This document shows, piece after piece, positions 1,009 through 25,581 of a DNA stretch of 37,954 nt (its first letter is position 1; every line of letters begins with the position of its first letter). The stretch is from a virus: the UHGV virus genome UHGV-0114795. One strand, given 5' to 3'. The notes beneath the pieces were generated by a model. The model saw only the letters and a list, made by a program, of their open reading frames with translations. It had not been told where the DNA came from and did not search any database. The position numbers were made by a program, and so were the translations under genes.

Positions 1009-1083
1009 GTCCTCTTAGTTAAATGGATATAACGAGCCCCTCCTAAGGGCTAATTGCAGGTTCGATTCCTGCAGGGGACACCA
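1009..1083 (+). tRNA. argW: tRNA-Arg (anticodon CCU)
   Basis: 75 nt read from sequence: acceptor stem GTCCTCT/AGGGGAC, anticodon loop with CCT flanked by stem AGCCC/GGGCT, T-loop GGTTCGATTCC, 3' CCA encoded. Known prophage integration target. Confidence 0.9.
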
Positions 1084-5079: not shown

Positions 5080-5961
5080 TCAGTAGTTATGTACTGAAGG
5101 AGGTAATTCTTTATTCTTAAGTCTCATCCATGCGGAAAGATTCGTTGGTCCGTCTGGCTCATTAATATCAACATCTCGTGTGTGGTTTATTAAAACGTCT
5201 CTCGCCATTCCGATAACATACGAGAATTCATGACCGTAGTCGTAGCATCTGCCGGAATAGTTCGATTGAATTTGTTTTAGCGCCGGATACAGTTCGCGGA
5301 ATAATGCCTGTGAGCGGTTGGCATAATCCCATAACCATACAAGGTTGTTTGCTTCTTTTGCAGAAAGCTCGTTGGTTTTCTTCTCTTGTTTGCCAATGAA
5401 CTCACCTTCAAGCACTACCCTGTGGATGTACTCTACGGCCAGCGGGATTTGTTCAATTGAAAGTTCATCAATGCTGTCAATACCAAAACGCTGATGAACC
5501 ATATTGTATGCATCGTCATAGCGAAGTCCTTTCTTTCCTACCAGCATGTTTACTGCATCGCGTAGCGGCGTTCTTTCCTCAACAGTGGTTTTCTTGCCTT
5601 TCACATACTCGCCATGTTTGCGAATTGAAGGTAGAACTTCTGCTGTTACCCACTTGCGGAATTTGTGCGGGACCGAACCTTTATTGACAGCATCGCGGCA
5701 GCGCAGAACCAATGTATACATACCTGATTCGCTAACAATGCTTAGATTCTGCTCACCACCAAGGGTGTAACTTAAAGTTACTCCCTTTTCATCGTCATCA
5801 AGTGCAGTAAGCGCCTTGCGTGAGTTAGTCAGGGTTAAAGCATCACAAACATCTTTTGCTACAAACCACGGCTCACCGCATTTGTTGATGACGCGGATTT
5901 CACTGTCGCCGAATTTGAAGATGGTGAAATCGTTTTGTGCCTTTGCTATACTTTTCATGTC
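5080..5961 (-). CDS. ant: Antirepressor (Bro-N/KilA-N N-terminal domain), P22 Ant-like
   Basis: Position downstream of arc in immI operon; N-terminal [25 protein letters not shown] pattern typical of Bro-N antirepressors. Start chosen at ATG 5961 (AGGAAA upstream) rather than the ORF-track start at 6024. Confidence 0.75.
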
Positions 5962-6026
5962 AATATTTCCTAATCCGATTTGTTGATACCGAAGCCCTGA
6001 CTGTTCCCGCAGTTGGGGCTTCAACT

Positions 6027-19437: not shown

Positions 19438-20937
19438 TTAAGTTCTCCGTGCGATGGGCCTGATTGGGGCTGGTATCTTTTTCTCTTTTGGTTTTTTGAT
19501 GTCGCGCATCATTTTGGCGAAGCGGCGCATCATGTATGCATAGCGAACGGCTGAGAGAACGTCGTCGTTAAGCTTGACGATTTTCCCGTTTTCATCACGG
19601 TGATAGAGGCGGAACTCCTCAAAGAATGGCTCACAGGTGTTGAATACTTTGAAGCGACCGTCGAGCATCATGTCTCGCAATTCAGTGATGCCAGGCTCAA
19701 CAGCGTTACCGCCATCAGTCCATGTCGCATGCTCCTGCAACATCATAAATCCAGCGTCTGCATACTGCCCTTTGAGCTGCTCACCGCCGCCCTTCTCATG
19801 CTGGTTTCCATCATGAGGCCATGCGGTTGGCACTTTATGCGCCCATGATTTAACAGCTCCCCATGCCTGAACCGCTGTTTTTTCTTTCGCCTTCCACACG
19901 CGTGAAACGTAGATTGTGTCTGCGTCCTTATCCCACCAAAGCTGAACCTGCGCCTGTGGGTGATCCCATCCGAAATCCATCCCGCCAATTACGTAGAAGT
20001 GATCAGGACACTCGAACGGCTGGCACTTAATCGTCTCTTCCGGTATCTGGAAGATTCGACCACTACCCATCGTAGGAATACCGCGAGCGCGCGCCTCTCT
20101 CTCATGCTCAGGATAAGATGCGATGATTTGCTCTTTCTGCTCGTCGGTATAGTGCTCTGCGTCATAGATGGTCATGTTGACCACTTTCTGCGACTTGCTG
20201 GGATTCTTCAGGAACTTGGTAACAACGTCAGACATCCCCATCAGCGGGGTAAACGTCAGAATTGAGAATTGCCCGTATTTGTTGGTACGGGTAAGGCCTT
20301 CGCCATAAATGCTGTATGGTGGCTCTTCGTCAAACCACACGCCGTGGATTGTGTCACCCTGCCAGCGAGCACGGCCTTGCGAGTATGGCTTGAAGTAGCA
20401 GATTGAAATGCCATCTTCAACGCCATCAGCCGTGTGATGCTTAACCAGAAGATGATCAACAAGGTTCGGAAAGAAAGGAGACTTCTCCCAGCTAATGATG
20501 TCTTCTTTCGGTATGGAACCGTAGCCAGGCTCATCATTCTCTTCGATACGACCGCACAGGATGCGTTGAGTCGTTTTGGTTACAGTCTCGTTTGTCTCGC
20601 CACCAATCCAGAAGACAACAGGCTCATAGAAACGCTTACCTTTCCACTCACCGCCATATTTACCATCAGCAGGATAGCCTTTTGTGCCCGGATAACGCCC
20701 TGTAAGGTGAAACGCGACTTCAGCAGCACCAGTAAATGACTTACCAAGCTGGTTACCAGCCATAAAACATCGCTCTGGGTAGTCATGTCCGGCTTCGATG
20801 AACTCACGCTGTTTGCTGTATGGCGTAAATTCATATAGCAGGTGTGTGTTCCGGTAGTTCTCTTCTTCTTCGAGTAGCTCGAGCAACTCGATTTGCTCTT
20901 CGTCGCTCAGGTTATCAAGAATCGCGTCCAGTTCCAC
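19438..20937 (-). CDS. Terminase large subunit, P22 gp2-like
   Basis: 499 aa; synteny; ATPase and nuclease regions expected for terminase. Confidence 0.9.
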
Positions 20938-21409
20938 GGTTGAATAGCTCCTTGATACGAGAGCGTCGCTTATCGCGATCTCCCTTATCAGGTGTCACGT
21001 CTTCAACTTGCGACTGCTCTTTGAGGCCCAAATCACGGGCGATGATGTTAGCGTTGAGAAGGTCAGCGGCTGCGCCAGAGAATTTCTGATCGTAGATGAC
21101 CTGCTCTGCTCGCGTAACGACTTCAGATAAATCTTCTCTCAGGCGATATGTGCGCCATGTTTCAAGCGTCACATCAATGAACAGAGTGAGGCCTGTAATG
21201 GTCATCGCTCGCATCTTGGCGATAGGTTCTTGTATCACTTCACCCTGATACGAGAACGCCTTCATCTCCCATAGCGGGTTAGCTTCCACCCACTCGAAGT
21301 ATTCACAACAAGCAGCCCACAGCGCCTCAGGCGATTCGAATTTAGGGTTTCGCCCATGACTACTGCGGGCCTCCCAAAATCGGTTGCCCTTTGGTGCTGC
21401 CATATTCAT
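20915..21409 (-). CDS. Terminase small subunit, P22 gp3-like
   Basis: 164 aa; ...[45 protein letters not shown]... recalled as P22 gp3; 23-nt overlap with terL start. Confidence 0.85.
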
Positions 21410-21426: not shown

Positions 21427-21606
21427 TCAGGCTGAGGACTCTTTCGCGCTTTCAATCAGTGACTGCTTCAGTAATTCGAGTGTACCAATCGCCTCGCATA
21501 AACTGATTTCACCATCGTAATCATGGATGACGCTTTCCAGCCGCTCGTATAGCTCTTGAGTAATTGGGAATTTCTTCTCCTTACCAAGATCAACGACGCT
21601 TGTCAT
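21427..21606 (-). CDS. Hypothetical small protein (59 aa), not in supplied ORF track
   Basis: Found by manual translation of the gap between terS and the 95-aa ORF: MTSVVDLGKEKKFPITQELYERLESVIHDYDGEISLCEAIGTLELLKQSLIESAKESSA. Confidence 0.35.
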   Translation of the reverse strand: MTSVVDLGKEKKFPITQELYERLESVIHDYDGEISLCEAIGTLELLKQSLIESAKESSA

Positions 21607-21615
21607 AGAGGATTC

Positions 21616-21903
21616 CTATAATTTTGAATATCCAGACTCAAATACCTCAGCAGGAGAATATGATTCATATCCATCCTCATAGACAACGTAATAGCCTCCA
21701 GACATTGGTCGGTGCTTACAGATATATTCCGCGCTAACATCAAATGCTGCGTATTTCTTATCATCCGGATGAATAATTGCCCCATAACTAGAAGAGCCAG
21801 TCTTACCATACTGATCTGGGTTTGGCTTATGTTCTATAGAGCCAATCTTCAGGGCGCGAACTTTTTTGTGGCACTGGTATCTCGGCATTTCTTGTTCAGT
21901 CAT
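21616..21903 (-). CDS. Hypothetical protein (95 aa)
   Basis: ORF MTEQEMPRYQCHKKVRALKIGS... in the moron region upstream of terS; no homologue recalled. Confidence 0.5.
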   Translation of the reverse strand: MTEQEMPRYQCHKKVRALKIGSIEHKPNPDQYGKTGSSSYGAIIHPDDKKYAAFDVSAEYICKHRPMSGGYYVVYEDGYESYSPAEVFESGYSKL

Positions 21904-21906
21904 CTC

Positions 21907-22149
21907 TTACACTCCGGTAGTGAACAGGTCTAACGCTTCCTTCGATTTACGCACCGCTTCGATAGTGCGGGTCGTGATATCTGAATTAGCGCCGCCTGAC
22001 TGGAAGTGAATTTTGAATAGCTCAAGCTTCAGCTCGTCAGTACCAATGAACTGAAATGCTTCCTCTGCGGCTGCGTTCTGGTTCATGACCAGTTTGTAAA
22101 TCTCTAACTGGAATTTCTGTTCTTCAGTCATGGAAATAATCTCTGCCAT
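21907..22149 (-). CDS. Hypothetical protein (80 aa)
   Basis: ORF with ACGGAG-type SD upstream; no homologue recalled. Confidence 0.5.
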   Translation of the reverse strand: MAEIISMTEEQKFQLEIYKLVMNQNAAAEEAFQFIGTDELKLELFKIHFQSGGANSDITTRTIEAVRKSKEALDLFTTGV

Positions 22150-22376
22150 TGTTGGCTCCGTTTATCCGTTAAAAGGGATATCAGTTAAGCTATCCCGTGT
22201 AGGGTATAAGCTATTGTCGAGACCACTCATTGAATGGTCTCTGCAATAACCGATGTCTTTCCATCAGTCCGCCACCACAAAGAATCTTTTTTGCCATAAG
22301 GCAGGAGGTTCATCTTTCAGTGGCTGCCAGTGTTATTTCCCCACTTTCTGGCTTGGGTTGTTTCGCTGTACTGCCG

Positions 22377-22919
22377 TTAATTGGTGAGTCCGGGGATTAA
22401 GGTTTGCCCGTGCTGTTCAAGGCGTTCAATTCTCGCCAGTAGCTGAGGCTTCTTAATTTTTCCCCAGCGATTAAGCAGGCGGCCTGACATGCTGGCAACA
22501 TCCTTCTCTTTCATGTACTCCAGCATTACGGCATTTCTCTCTTCTTCAAATTGACGATGACCAACCTGAAGCATGGCGTACATCCAGTTGAATGCGTTGA
22601 TGTAAGCAATTTTGATACGCATTGCTTCTTTTTTGGTGTAGGACATAACCAAAAGCATCAACCCATCCTTGCGGAGACGGTAGAATTTTTGCGGCTTACC
22701 ATTCTGTAACTCATTGTTTTTATAGCAAAGCTCAAAGTTGAGCTTTGTATCAAACTCAGGAGGGCAAGCTTCTATGGTTCGCTCAATGTCACGAACCACG
22801 TTCTTCGGCAGCTTTCCAAATGCTTTTGCCACCATAAAAGAATCTGTAACCGGATCGTTGTTTGCTACAAAAATTAGGTCTCTGAAATCTATATCGTTAA
22901 CAACGGTTGGGTAGTTCAT
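22377..22919 (-). CDS. Phage regulatory protein, Rha family (putative)
   Basis: 180-aa protein resembling Rha/antirepressor-type regulators; family assignment from memory and uncertain. Confidence 0.55.
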   Translation of the reverse strand: MNYPTVVNDIDFRDLIFVANNDPVTDSFMVAKAFGKLPKNVVRDIERTIEACPPEFDTKLNFELCYKNNELQNGKPQKFYRLRKDGLMLLVMSYTKKEAMRIKIAYINAFNWMYAMLQVGHRQFEEERNAVMLEYMKEKDVASMSGRLLNRWGKIKKPQLLARIERLEQHGQTLIPGLTN

Positions 22920-23065
22920 TGCGTCTTTACCTTTTAGAAAGATGAGCCTGTTCGCACAGAAAAGCCGTCCCCGAGATGGTCGCCACCATATACGGCAATT
23001 CTCAGGCTCAGCTTTCTGAAAGACTCGGGATTGTTACGCGCTGCGATGCGCGGTTTACTGCAGAT

Positions 23066-23092
23066 GTAAAAAAGCCCCGCAAATGCGAGGCT
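23066..23092 (-). terminator. Intrinsic terminator downstream of lysis cassette
   Basis: On minus strand CCUCGC-AUUU-GCGGGG hairpin (one G-U pair) followed by CUUUUUU. Confidence 0.5.
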
Positions 23093-23265
23093 AAATCCTG
23101 GTATTTGTAATGACTGGCTCTTATCTCAACGCAGCCCCTTACCGCGCGCCAGATGCTCAATATCAAGCATCAGCAATGAGATGTTTAATCTGGATTCACT
23201 CCAGAAGTGATCATCACCCTGTCTACAGAGCCAGATGTGAAGGATGATGAGTAAAATTATCGCTA

Positions 23266-23724
23266 TCATCGAAGGCATTGCGTCCTGATGTATTCCTGCA
23301 GGTAGTTAACCTGCGCGGTTATCCTGTCGATTCCACTTCTGAGACGGTAATAATTGAGTTCAGCATCTGCTGTAAGTCCTGGGTTTTCTCCATCGCCCAT
23401 GCCGCTGGCTCCGGTCGTTGACGTTGCACAGGTGGCGGCGACTTGCAGGCGCTTACGACCAGCAGAAACATCAGCACGGAGACTTTCGATAGTCGCGTTA
23501 GCATCAGCAAGCTCCTTTGTATATCTGGCATCGAGTTCTGCTACATCACGTTGACGCTTCTGCATGTCAGCGATGGTGGCGGTCGCCTGCTTCAGCTCAC
23601 TGACTTTTTTATCACGCTGTTCTTTATAGGCGATGGCGTTATCACGGTAATGATTGACCGCCCATGACAGGCAGACGATGATGCAGATAACCAGAGCGGA
23701 GATAATCGCGGTGACTCTGCTCAT
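23266..23724 (-). CDS. Rz-type i-spanin
   Basis: N-terminal TM ([23 protein letters not shown]) then coiled-coil periplasmic domain; follows the endolysin. Confidence 0.8.
23319..23504 (-). CDS. Rz1-type o-spanin lipoprotein, embedded in Rz in +1 frame
   Basis: Signal peptide with lipobox ([20 protein letters not shown]) and proline-rich mature region ([16 protein letters not shown]), entirely inside Rz. Confidence 0.7.
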
Positions 23725-24224
23725 TGTTGCCCCCACAAACAGACTTCACGCTCAATCTCACGGCGAGTCATCAGCCCTTTCCATTGCTTACCTCCAGCGT
23801 ATGTCCAACGACGTAACTGATCACATGCACCTTTGATATCGCCCTGGTTTATTTTGCTAAGAAGCGTCGATGTTCTGAAATTGCCAGCACCCACGTTGTA
23901 GACGAACGAGTAAAGAGCGCCGCGCGTTGTTTCCGGTATATCGACTTTGATGTACGGGTTAATTTGTCTGGCGACCGTGGCAAGGTCTTTATTCAGGAGG
24001 GCTTTGCATTCTGCTTCGGTATACGTTTTACCGAGCATGATGTCTTTTCCGGTGTGTCCGTGACATACAGTCCATACACCAACAATATCTTTGTATGGTA
24101 TGTAGCTGACACCTTCCAAACCATCGTTACCACTTGGTCCAGTGATTAACACAGATGCTATAGCAATAGCCCCGCCACTTATCGCCGCTATTACGCTATT
24201 TCGTAGTGCCGGTGACATTGCCAT
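23721..24224 (-). CDS. SAR endolysin (T4-lysozyme-type, GH24), phage 21 R-like
   Basis: N-terminal Gly/Ala-rich SAR segment ([19 protein letters not shown]) followed by [22 protein letters not shown]..; recalled as near-identical to phage 21 R. Confidence 0.9.
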
Positions 24225-24399
24225 TCAATCTGTCCTCGCGCTCTTTGCGCTTGTAGTACCAGTTGATGCCAAATGTGCCGACAGTACAAAGAATACCAAT
24301 GATGACAGCCCAGTCATTCAGGGAGAGAATGCCACCCATCGCAGTCAGTCCTCCGAAGCTGTAACTGAACCATTCTCTGATTTTGTCCATACGGTACAT
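24196..24399 (-). CDS. Class II holin (pinholin-like), dual-start holin/antiholin
   Basis: MYRMDK dual-start motif (Met1, Arg3, Met4) like phage 21 S; two TMDs, the first Gly-rich; overlaps endolysin start. Confidence 0.8.
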
Positions 24400-24957: not shown

Positions 24958-25581
24958 CTAACGTGTGACCGCATTCAAAATATTATCTGCGATTGACTCT
25001 TCTTTGTGGCATTGCACCACCAGAGAGTCATACAGCGGCTTAACAGTGCGTGACCAGGTGGGTTGGGTAAGGTTTGGGATTAGCATCGTCACAGCGCGAT
25101 ATGCTGCGCTTGCTGGCATCCTTGAATAGCCGACGCCTTTGCATCTTCCGCACTCTTTCTCGACAACTCTCCCCCACTGCTCTGTTTTGGCTATATCAAC
25201 CGCACGACCTGTACCGTGGCAATCTCTGCATCTTGCCCCCGGCGTCGCGGCACTACGGCAATAATCCGCATAAGCGAATGTTGCGAGCACTTGCAGTACC
25301 TTTGCCTTAGTATTTCCTTCAAGCTTTGCAACGCCACGGTATTTCCCCGATACCTTGTGTGCAAATTGCATCAGATAGTTGATAGCCTTTTGTTTGTCGT
25401 TCTGGCTGAGTTCATGCTTACCGCAGAATGCAGCCATTCCGAATCCGGCTTGTGATTGCGCCATCCCCATAGCAGCCATCACATCAGTACCGGAAAGAGA
25501 GTCAGAAGCCGTGGCCCGTGGTGAGTCGCTCATCATCGGGCTTTTTGGCGAATGAAATTTAGCTACGCTTTCGAGTCTCAT
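24958..25581 (-). CDS. Q: Late gene antiterminator Q (lambda type)
   Basis: 207 aa, [76 protein letters not shown]..., recalled as essentially identical to lambda Q. Confidence 0.9.
25281..25313 (+). promoter_or_regulatory. paQ-like CII-dependent antisense promoter inside Q
   Basis: TTGCGAGCACTTGC (TTGC-N6-TTGC) followed 13 nt later by TAGTAT on the strand antisense to Q; same architecture as PRE in this window. Confidence 0.55.

What the first reader, a model, noticed from the sequence alone, without database searches (positions are those of the whole stretch)
21427..23265. Moron cluster between lysis cassette and terminase: Rha-family regulator plus three small unknown ORFs
Between Rz/Rz1 and terS lie four genes not part of the conserved lysis or packaging modules, bracketed by a terminator downstream of Rz (23066..23092) and a hairpin (22228..22250, GAGACCA...TGGTCTC). 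Such positions frequently carry lysogenic-conversion or anti-phage cargo. None of the three small proteins (59, 95, 80 aa) is recognisable to me.
Basis: inference. Interest (0 to 1): 0.5.

Follow-up and report, generated by a model that had tools for sequence, protein, structure and literature searches.

The report
P22 accessory genes plus Dec-like insert
The genes between lysis and packaging are mostly the ordinary, dispensable accessory stretch that phage P22 itself carries, but one rare 95-residue insert belongs to a very large unnamed protein family that shares its fold with a capsid decoration protein and is repeatedly found fused to known phage anti-immunity "sponge" proteins.

Summary
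The ORFs are real and sit at the stated coordinates on the minus strand, inside the late operon of a P22-like prophage. They are not a self-contained moron island. Rha, the 80-aa ORF (Pfam DUF2560 = P22 orf80) and the 59-aa ORF (= P22 orf59c) are backbone accessory genes shared with P22, Sf6, HK620 and Sf101. P22 orf80 is reported to be dispensable. No promoter-like site precedes any of them. The 22228-22250 hairpin is not a terminator. It lies at the 3' end of the homologue of P22 small RNA P22G and marks a cassette slot that holds Acb4, DUF551 or pid in relatives.

The only true insert is a 326-bp cassette encoding the 95-aa protein, found in 50 of 5,426 E. coli genomes. Its predicted fold matches only the OB domain of the phage L decoration protein Dec, whose gene occupies the same slot. 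It lacks Dec's spike and capsid-contact residues. Its family (about 5,000 clusters, no Pfam entry) is fused to Tad2, Acb4, Sequestin or Acb2/Tad1 domains in 16 of 61 multidomain members. My best guess is a counter-defence factor, and this is untested.

The parts
23126..23278 (-). 50-aa ORF with one N-terminal hydrophobic helix (= Sf6 gene 65, Sf101 gp62). It overlaps the last 13 nt of Rz.
   Evidence: phrog_11822, 5.5e-38; 44 phage records, always at the Rz 3' end
23063..23092 (-). Intrinsic-terminator-like hairpin plus U-run, downstream of the 50-aa ORF. A Q/gp23-modified late transcription complex would be expected to read through it.
   Evidence: read-through is inference from established P22/lambda late antitermination
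22377..22919 (-). Rha-family protein (N-terminal Phage_pRha domain, C-terminal ORF11CD3 domain). It is 55% identical to P22 Rha, and the last ~60 residues are nearly identical.
22234..22435 (-). Homologue (94.6% over 204 nt) of the P22 small non-coding RNA P22G. It covers the end of rha and most of a strongly structured intergenic region (22150-22376: MFE -74.1 kcal/mol, z = -4.84).
   Evidence: PMC13397905
22228..22250 (-). Conserved stem-loop with no U-run. It marks the 3' end of the P22G homologue and the junction where Acb4 and DUF551 cassettes sit in relatives. Two alleles differ by three compensatory pairs.
21907..22149 (-). 80-aa DUF2560 protein = P22 orf80 / HK620 hkbM. It is a backbone accessory gene of P22-like phages, and P22 orf80 is reported dispensable.
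   Evidence: 2.6e-43; 178 phage records
21586..21911 (.). 326-bp cassette that replaces 27 bp in Sf101 and is likewise absent from P22. It is the only true insertion in the interval.
   Evidence: breakpoints; 50 of 5,426 complete E. coli genomes; 5 of 66 loci
21616..21903 (-). 95-aa OB-fold protein ('OB95'). It is homologous to the OB domain of the phage L decoration protein Dec and belongs to a large family that has no Pfam entry.
21427..21606 (-). 59-aa predicted helical protein = P22 orf59c / HK620 hkbN. It lies in the same frame as OB95, separated by TAG plus three codons.
   Evidence: (phrog_3546, 1.9e-41)
23266..23736 (-). Rz spanin (Rz1 embedded at 23319-23531). This is the upstream boundary of the accessory segment.
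20915..21409 (-). P22-type small terminase (GP3_package). This is the downstream boundary of the accessory segment.

Best explanation
The interval is the standard dispensable accessory segment of the late operon of P22-like phages. Its order is Rz/Rz1, small membrane ORF (Sf6 gp65 type), terminator, Rha, structured RNA (P22G homologue ending in a conserved hairpin), orf80/DUF2560, orf59c, terS. All of it would be transcribed from the late promoter under Q/gp23 antitermination, not from promoters of its own.

The segment is built around at least two cassette slots, where gene-sized pieces are swapped between relatives.
- Slot A lies at the hairpin and just downstream of it, upstream of orf80. 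It is empty here; relatives hold Acb4, DUF551 or pid.
- Slot B lies between orf80 and terS. Here it holds a rare 326-bp cassette encoding a 95-aa OB-fold protein, followed by orf59c. In phage L the same slot holds dec.

The 95-aa protein shares ancestry with the capsid-binding OB domain of Dec but lacks Dec's trimerising spike and its capsid-contact residues. It belongs to a very large, unnamed, highly conserved family of small phage proteins.

I propose that this protein is a counter-defence factor. The most likely mechanism is a small oligomeric binder that sequesters a nucleotide immune signal, made together with the structural proteins.

Shown here: the anatomy, the homologies, the mosaic breakpoints, the fold match and the domain fusions. 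Inferred: late-operon expression, and any function of the 95-aa protein, orf80, orf59c and the hairpin.
For: Backbone status.
- P22 itself has rha, orf25, orf80 and orf59c in this order. Sf101 is 99% identical to the window apart from the cassette.
- orf80 is found in 178 phage records and orf59c in 45.
- The genes are packed 3 to 17 nt apart, and there is no minus-strand promoter-like site between Rz and terS.

Slots.
- Breakpoints against relatives are 21585/21912, 22163/22191, 22228/22247 and 22250/22252.
- Census of IMG/VR loci. Slot A, 84 loci: empty 58, Acb4 16, other 7, DUF551 2, pid 1. Slot B, 66 loci: nothing 37, orf59 alone 16, OB95+orf59 5, Dec with or without orf129 7, orf129 alone 1.
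- The slot-A gene in locus L005 is PF13876 at 8.6e-35. PF13876 is the Acb4 sponge family (10.1101/2024.12.30.630793; 10.1101/2025.07.12.664507).

Fold of the 95-aa protein.
- AlphaFold2 model, mean pLDDT 81.9.
- In the Foldseek search of the full PDB, Dec is the only hit at E <= 1e-3 (2.7e-4).
- hhalign of the family against Dec gives E 1.7e-5, with residues 6-95 aligned to Dec 10-92.
- dec sits immediately upstream of terS in phage L.

Family size: 4,963 representatives at E <= 1e-3 and 3,067 at E <= 1e-10. No Pfam, NCBIfam or PADLOC model matches.

Counter-defence inference.
- Among 61 members of 148 aa or more, the fused domains are Sequestin/PF21825 (7), Acb4/PF13876 (4), Tad2-like (3) and Acb2/Tad1 hairpin (2).
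- The same fusion logic led to the discovery of Sequestin (10.1101/2025.07.12.664507).
- A known sponge family, Acb4, occupies the neighbouring slot of the same late-operon segment in relatives.
- The family occurs in unrelated phages and in different genome modules.
Against: - No experiment bears on the 95-aa protein. Fusion is guilt by association: 45 of the 61 multidomain members carry no known sponge domain, and other partners include DUF551, SpoIIE and PP-binding domains.
- Known sponges bind ligand in pockets between protomers of a homo-oligomer. I could only model a monomer.
- Dec, the only similar solved structure, is a capsid protein, and its gene occupies the same slot.
- In Ralstonia phage GP4 the homologue lies inside the head gene cluster.
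- The gene sits late in the late operon. SPO1 Acb4 and T4 Acb1 activity appears early in infection, so a late position may be too late to intercept an immune signal.
- Neighbouring genes in diverse phages are heterogeneous, mostly small terminases.
- Promoter scans based on a consensus can miss real promoters, so expression from the prophage is not excluded.
Confidence: 0.55

Rival explanations
1. The 95-aa protein is a Dec-like capsid decoration or other virion-associated accessory protein. It would bind the mature capsid through its OB domain, and the small ORFs around it would be head-related helpers.
For: - Dec is the top and only significant structural match, and the profile comparison gives E 1.7e-5.
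- dec occupies the same slot just before terS in phage L and in 7 of 66 census loci.
- The GP4 homologue gp05 lies between the portal/gp06 genes and the major capsid gene.
- Depositors annotated the Pseudomonas phage Dolphis homologue as 'capsid decoration protein'.
Against: - The protein ends where Dec's three-stranded spike begins, and the spike provides the trimer contacts (PMC6449081).
- The Dec residues tested for capsid binding (K30, Y31, Y49, Y71, E73) align with E24, H25, D55, D77 and Y79, so the contact surface is not conserved.
- The 3.7 A GP4 capsid structure contains only gp2 and gp1 (PMC9698820).
- The family is far more conserved (about 20 invariant residues) across phages with unrelated capsids than a lattice-specific binder should be.
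- It also sits in replication or early modules and is fused to cytosolic sponge domains.
Confidence: 0.15
2. One reading: the cluster is a set of morons expressed from the prophage that give the lysogen a new property, either lysogenic conversion or defence against other phages.
For: - The interval is a documented moron site in P22 (pid; PMC3573128).
- There is a good terminator after the 50-aa membrane ORF.
- The 95-aa cassette is present in some relatives and absent from others.
- P22 small RNAs map to the intergenic regions here (PMC13397905).
Against: - No promoter-like site lies on the coding strand.
- All genes are co-oriented and tightly packed with the late operon, whereas pid is divergently transcribed with its own terminator.
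- PADLOC gave no meaningful hit.
- Three of the four genes are backbone genes of lytic-competent P22.
- The fusion partners of the 95-aa family are phage anti-defence domains, not defence domains.
Confidence: 0.1
3. The 95-aa OB-fold protein binds nucleic acid (or terminase) and modulates DNA packaging or late gene expression. orf80 and orf59c would be partners in the same process.
For: - Conserved aromatic and basic residues are present.
- In diverse phages the gene most often sits just upstream of small terminase genes of four different families.
- In P22-like phages whose OB95 is nearly identical to the window's it was always followed by orf59c (5 of 5 census loci), and natural in-frame fusions of the two exist.
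Against: - P22 and most relatives package DNA without this gene, and orf80 is dispensable.
- Position before terS is where many phages park accessory genes.
- The AlphaFold2 model of the natural OB95-orf59 fusion shows no confident docking: pTM 0.53 with a disordered linker.
- The fusion partners are not packaging proteins.
Confidence: 0.15

Closest known systems
Phage P22 late-region accessory segment (rha, orf25, pid, orf80, orf59c) and its counterparts in Sf6 (genes 65, 66), HK620 (hkbK-N) and Sf101 (gp62-66)
   Same: Same position between Rz/Rz1 and terS, same orientation and same backbone genes. orf80 is 97% identical to P22 orf80, orf59c is 90% identical, and the Rha C-terminus is nearly identical. 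The same structured intergenic RNA is present (P22G, 94.6% identity).
   Different: There is no pid insert and no Acb4 (Sf6 gp66-type) gene. The Rha N-terminal domain is a different allele (55% identity overall). There is an extra 95-aa gene between orf80 and orf59c that P22, Sf6, HK620 and Sf101 lack.
[quoted passage not shown]
   Same: Same OB-fold variant, and it is the only significant structural match. The core motifs are shared (KPxxGGY, AFExxY). The gene occupies the same slot just upstream of terS in a P22-like genome.
   Different: There is no C-terminal beta-helix spike (Dec residues ~78-134). Dec's capsid-contact residues are not conserved. The family is far larger, more conserved and taxonomically much wider than Dec, and it is often fused to anti-defence domains.
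Phage immune-signal sponges (Tad1, Tad2, Acb2, Acb4/PF13876, Sequestin/PF21825, Lockin)
   Same: A small phage protein of unknown function that occurs in many unrelated phages, is found fused to four of these families, and lies in a locus where a relative carries Acb4.
   Different: It has no sequence membership in any of them. It is a beta-barrel OB fold, unlike the alpha-helical Sequestin. Oligomeric state, pocket and ligand are unknown, and no phenotype has been measured.
Morons in the sense used for P22 pid
   Same: The 95-aa gene is a discrete, gene-sized insertion with sharp boundaries at gene ends, present in some relatives and absent in others.
   Different: It has no detectable promoter or terminator of its own and the same orientation as the operon around it. 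pid is divergently transcribed and has its own Rho-independent terminator.

Membership tests
Moron (autonomous insert expressed from the prophage) | Present or absent between otherwise near-identical relatives, with sharp boundaries | tested here: met
   This holds for the 95-aa cassette only: breakpoints 21585/21912 against Sf101 and P22, and 50 of 5,426 E. coli genomes. Rha, orf80 and orf59c are backbone genes.
Moron (autonomous insert expressed from the prophage) | Own promoter upstream and own terminator downstream | tested here: not met
   No minus-strand promoter-like site lies between 21409 and 23736. The only terminator follows the 50-aa ORF. A consensus scan can miss weak promoters.
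Moron (autonomous insert expressed from the prophage) | Transcribed in the lysogen | not testable with these tools
   This needs RNA-seq of the lysogen.
Dec-type decoration protein | N-terminal Dec-type OB fold | tested here: met
Dec-type decoration protein | C-terminal three-stranded spike that makes the trimer | tested here: not met
   The protein ends at the position aligned with Dec residue ~92. The Dec spike is residues 78-134 (PMC6449081).
Dec-type decoration protein | Capsid-contact residues K30, Y31, Y49, Y71, E73 | tested here: not met
   They align with E24, H25, D55, D77 and Y79.
Dec-type decoration protein | Binds mature capsids | not testable with these tools
   This needs virion proteomics or a capsid-binding assay.
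Immune-signal sponge (functional class) | Sequence membership in Tad1, Tad2, Acb2, Acb4 or Sequestin | tested here: not met
   There was no Pfam hit for the 95-aa protein at E <= 1. Lockin is reported absent from INPHARED phage genomes, whereas this family is present in that collection.
Immune-signal sponge (functional class) | Found fused to known sponge domains (the criterion that led to Sequestin) | tested here: met
   16 sponge-domain hits in 61 multidomain members. Individual E-values range from 8e-11 to 5e-29.
Immune-signal sponge (functional class) | Short protein forming a homo-oligomer with positively charged pockets between protomers | not tested
   The short length is met (95 aa). 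Multimer prediction and pocket analysis were not available.
Immune-signal sponge (functional class) | Binds an immune signal and rescues phage from a signalling defence system | not testable with these tools
   This needs biochemistry and plaque assays.
Rha family (Phage_pRha) | Phage_pRha domain, here with a C-terminal ORF11CD3 domain | tested here: met
   PF09669 at 1.7e-21, PF10549 at 1.9e-25, TIGR02681 at 3.8e-24; 55% identical to P22 Rha.
DUF2560 | Full-length match above the Pfam gathering score | tested here: met
   146.5 bits against a cut-off of 25, residues 5-76 matching model positions 1-72 of 72.
Intrinsic terminator | G+C-rich stem followed by a U-run | tested here: met
   Met for 23092..23063.
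Intrinsic terminator | The same test applied to the hairpin at 22250..22228 | tested here: not met
   The stem is followed by GACAAUAGCUUAUACCC, and the scan did not call it.

The most novel reading that the evidence does not exclude
The 95-aa protein would be the first recognised member of a new, very large family of phage counter-defence proteins (about 5,000 clusters at 50% identity, no Pfam model). Earlier fusion-based searches queried Pfam, so a family without a Pfam entry was invisible to them. In this reading the family sequesters or otherwise neutralises a nucleotide immune signal. The phage L decoration protein Dec would then have arisen by joining this OB domain to a tail-fibre-like trimeric spike.
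Probability: 0.3. Interest if true: 0.75.

Novelty: new variant of a known kind. Interest (0 to 1): 0.5.

Why it matters
As a gene cluster this is ordinary. It is the P22 accessory late segment, and the value of the check is to stop it being counted as a new moron island.

The part worth following is the 95-aa insert.
- It links the 'novel' OB fold of Dec to a huge uncharacterised family for the first time, as far as I could find.
- The same fusion argument that uncovered the Sequestin sponge family applies to it.
- If it is a sponge or another immune inhibitor, it adds a widespread family to the phage anti-immunity repertoire.
- It is directly testable with existing Thoeris, CBASS and Pycsar assays and with a culturable phage that carries the gene (Escherichia phage Bas106).
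- It would also show that the Rz-to-terS segment of P22-like phages is a counter-defence locus (Acb4 in one slot, this gene in the other).

Tried and rejected
- Sequence searches of the three small proteins against PDB chains found nothing significant.
- NCBIfam and PADLOC gave nothing for the small ORFs.
- Rfam found nothing in the interval at gathering score, and only a chance-level RcsR1 match at E 0.74.
- I tested whether orf59c or orf80 are hidden Sequestin (PF21825) relatives, since both are short and orf59c is predicted helical. hhalign probability was below 1% for both, and the two are also unrelated to each other. Rejected.
- I tested whether orf59c is a partner domain of the 95-aa protein. 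Natural in-frame fusions exist (TAG changed to GAG, P0001-P0004 and P0006). However, the AlphaFold2 model of the fusion has pTM 0.53 with a disordered linker, and the extensions in other family members are heterogeneous. Not supported.
- I considered whether the family is Lockin. It is not, because Lockin is reported absent from INPHARED genomes.
- Literature searches for DUF2560, the PHROG identifiers and hkbM/hkbN gave nothing useful.
- The Rha literature search gave nothing beyond the old phi80/P22 observation, which I cite from my own knowledge.
- The afdb50 fold library was not available.
- The neighbourhood census in diverse phages was heterogeneous and did not discriminate between the hypotheses.
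Full report
**Setting.** The window is a P22-like (Lederbergvirus-type) prophage. It lies next to a tRNA-Arg(CCT) gene at 1009-1083 and contains a sar RNA at 5960-6026. The late genes are on the minus strand:
- Q/gp23-like antiterminator, 24958-25581
- holin, 24196-24399
- lysozyme, 23721-24224
- Rz, 23266-23736, with Rz1 embedded at 23319-23531
- small terminase of the P22 gp3 type, 20915-21409
- large terminase, 19438-20937

The finding covers what lies between Rz and terS.

**Observation.**
- The 180-aa ORF is a Rha-family protein: Phage_pRha 1.7e-21, ORF11CD3 1.9e-25, TIGR02681 3.8e-24. It is 55% identical to P22 Rha, with a nearly identical C-terminus.
- The 80-aa ORF is a full-length DUF2560 protein (2.6e-43), which is P22 orf80 and HK620 hkbM.
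- The 59-aa ORF is P22 orf59c and HK620 hkbN (90% and 88% identity).
- The 95-aa ORF matches phrog_11049 (1.1e-53) but no Pfam, NCBIfam or PADLOC model.
It is 50 aa with one hydrophobic helix, equals Sf6 gene 65, and overlaps the end of Rz in 44 phage records.
- The terminator at 23092-23063 is a good intrinsic-terminator match, but it follows that 50-aa ORF.
- The hairpin at 22228-22250 is real but has no U-run and was not called as a terminator.

**It is the P22 backbone, not a new island.**
- P22 has rha, orf25, orf80, orf59c and gene 3 in the same order and orientation.
- Sf101 is 99% identical to the window across the interval apart from one indel.
- The genes are separated by 3, 9 and 17 nt.
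- No promoter-like site lies on the coding strand between Rz and terS.
- The Casjens laboratory reports that P22 orf25 and orf80 are not needed for lysogeny or lytic growth and have not been studied further (bioRxiv 10.1101/2023.08.15.553423).

I therefore read these genes as dispensable passengers of the late operon, transcribed under Q-type antitermination. That expression pattern is an inference from what is established for P22 and lambda.

**The segment is built around cassette slots.** Pairwise breakpoints and inspection of the junctions show two slots.

Slot A lies at the hairpin and just downstream of it, upstream of orf80.
- P22 has 630 bp, including the pid moron, in place of window 22164-22190. 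pid is divergently transcribed, has its own terminator and derepresses the host dgo operon (PMC3573128, PMC8835761).
- One E. coli prophage has a 123-aa gene inserted at 22251. It is PF13876 at 8.6e-35.
- Another E. coli prophage has a DUF551 gene with its own terminator at 22228-22247.
- PF13876, named after N4 gp49 and Sf6 gene 66, is the Acb4 anti-CBASS sponge family (10.1101/2024.12.30.630793; 10.1101/2025.07.12.664507).

Slot B lies between orf80 and terS.

I took a census of IMG/VR loci that share a 25-nt anchor.

| Slot | Loci scored | Contents |
|---|---|---|
| A | 84 | empty 58, Acb4 16, other 7, DUF551 2, pid 1 |
| B | 66 | nothing 37, orf59 alone 16, the 95-aa gene plus orf59 5, Dec with or without orf129 7, orf129 alone 1 |

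The census is biased by the exact-match anchor. It shows the pattern, not true frequencies.

**The hairpin.**
- On the sense strand the 227-nt Rha-to-orf80 spacer folds far better than shuffled controls: -74.1 against -52.7 +/- 4.4 kcal/mol, z = -4.84.
- Window 22435-22234 is 94.6% identical to P22G, a 204-nt small RNA detected in P22-infected cells (PMC13397905).
- P22G ends inside the hairpin.
- Across the census loci the hairpin has two alleles: GAG(A/G)CCAUUC-AAU-GAGUGGUCUC when the slot is empty, and AAAGCCAUUC-CCUACA-GAGUGGCUUU after a cassette.
- The alleles differ by three compensatory pairs. The commonest variant keeps pairing through a G-U pair only on the sense strand.
- One locus (L124) carries the left arm of one allele and the right arm of the other, as expected of a recombination junction.
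- The annotated P22 'orf25' starts in the hairpin loop. Here it would encode only 15 residues, so it is probably not a gene.
- I infer an RNA-level role (a 3'-end or processing element) together with a role as a recombination boundary. Neither is shown.

**The 95-aa protein.**

*The gene and its family*
- Its gene is a 326-bp cassette (21586-21911) that replaces 27 bp in Sf101 and is likewise absent from P22.
- It occurs in 50 of 5,426 complete E. coli genomes, always between DUF2560 and orf59. It is also in Escherichia phages Bas106 and Dewey.
- The family is large. There were 444 hits in the word-indexed search. The exhaustive profile search gave 4,963 cluster representatives at E <= 1e-3 and 3,067 at E <= 1e-10.
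- About 20 residues are invariant in alignments reaching down to about 50% identity.

*Fold and relation to Dec*
- The AlphaFold2 model (mean pLDDT 81.9) is a small beta-barrel with two short helices.
- In the Foldseek search of the whole PDB, Dec is the only hit at E <= 1e-3.
- The family profile picks Dec as its best PDB sequence at a marginal E of 0.062.
- hhalign aligns residues 6-95 with Dec 10-92 at E 1.7e-5 and 78% probability.
- dec lies immediately before terS in phage L, so it is in the same slot.
- I conclude that the two share ancestry.

**Is it a decoration protein?** Probably not in the manner of Dec.
- It stops where Dec's trimeric spike begins.
- The Dec residues tested for capsid binding (K30, Y31, Y49, Y71, E73; PMC6449081) align with non-conserved or different residues.
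- In Ralstonia phage GP4 the homologue sits in the head gene cluster. However, the 3.7 A capsid structure contains only the major capsid and cement proteins (PMC9698820).
- In Salmonella phage PCSE1 and Pseudomonas phage Dolphis the homologue lies among replication or early genes.

**What else could it be?**
- Of the 150 best family representatives, 61 are 148 aa or longer. Their extra domains are Sequestin/PF21825 (7), Acb4/PF13876 (4), Tad2-like (3), Acb2/Tad1 hairpin (2) and DUF551 (2), plus single cases of other domains.
- Four unrelated families of immune-signal sponges are therefore the commonest partners.
- Tal et al. found Sequestin by asking which Pfam families are fused to Tad2 and Acb4. 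A family without a Pfam entry could not appear in that query.
- A 2026 paper lists the known sponge families as Tad1, Tad2, Acb2, Acb4, Sequestin and Lockin, to which it adds TadIV-1 (PMC13243611). None is this family, and Lockin is reported absent from sequenced isolate phage genomes.
- Acb4 occupies the neighbouring slot in relatives. Taken together, this makes a counter-defence role the best-supported guess.
- It is only a guess: 45 of the 61 fused members have no known sponge domain, I could not model oligomers or pockets, and neighbouring genes in diverse phages are heterogeneous, most often small terminases.

**orf80, orf59c and Rha.**
- orf80 and orf59c belong to narrow enterobacterial families. 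No structural or profile link to anything known was found.
- In the census, the near-identical OB95 gene of P22-like phages is always followed by orf59c. Some genomes fuse the two in frame by loss of the TAG stop. The modelled fusion shows no confident docking (pTM 0.53).
- Rha is a member of a known family whose role is poorly defined. From my own knowledge, rha genes of phi80 and P22 were named because their products inhibit phage growth in IHF-deficient hosts. I found no newer functional work.

**Verdict.**
- The 'moron cluster' reading is only partly right, and most of the cluster is already known and ordinary.
- One component, the 95-aa Dec-related OB protein, is an uncharacterised family with a concrete and testable counter-defence hypothesis.

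Noticed in passing
window 23126-23278 (-): A conserved 50-aa ORF with one hydrophobic helix (= Sf6 gene 65) overlaps the last 13 nt of Rz and is followed by a strong terminator. Its constant attachment to the spanin gene in 44 phage records hints at a lysis-related or membrane role.
   Followed up: partly
window 22150-22435 (-): The strongly structured intergenic RNA (z = -4.84) is homologous to the P22 small RNA P22G. The hairpin at its 3' end has two alleles with three compensatory pairs, and one recombinant (L124) carries one arm of each.
   Followed up: partly
window 21607-21618; proteins P0001-P0004 and P0006: The 95-aa ORF and orf59c are in the same frame, separated by TAG plus three codons. 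Several public genomes have GAG in place of TAG and encode a 158-aa fusion.
   Followed up: partly
protein P0288: A 4,188-aa protein matches positions 66-90 of the family profile (the GGYYVVYxDGYxSxSP hairpin) 28 times. The motif therefore also exists as a repeat unit in a giant protein.
   Followed up: no
protein P0283: A 308-aa protein carries two copies of the 95-aa domain in tandem. This could be a natural pseudo-dimer, useful for modelling how the domain self-associates.
   Followed up: no
HK97, HK75, HK446, mEp234 and others: HK97-like siphophages carry only the first 27-28 codons of orf80 at about 93% identity. This looks like a leftover mosaic boundary shared between P22-like and HK97-like lambdoid phages.
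   Followed up: no
L006 (Escherichia phage Bas106), one search hit H88: In Bas106 the last 32 codons of orf80 (100% identical) lie under the annotated Rha gene. There a deletion has joined Rha to the tail of orf80, and the phage lacks a complete orf80.
   Followed up: no
L010 (phage L), 2008-2364: Phage L orf118 is an orf25-like leader joined to a DUF2560 domain only 43% identical to the window's orf80. P22-like phages therefore carry two deeply diverged DUF2560 alleles.
   Followed up: no
window 1009-1083 and 5960-6026: A tRNA-Arg(CCT) gene lies next to an ORF at 1209-2402 that I take to be the integrase (not scanned against any family), so this is the likely attachment site. A sar antisense RNA (Rfam, 71.6 bits) shows that a P22-type immI region is present.
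   Followed up: no
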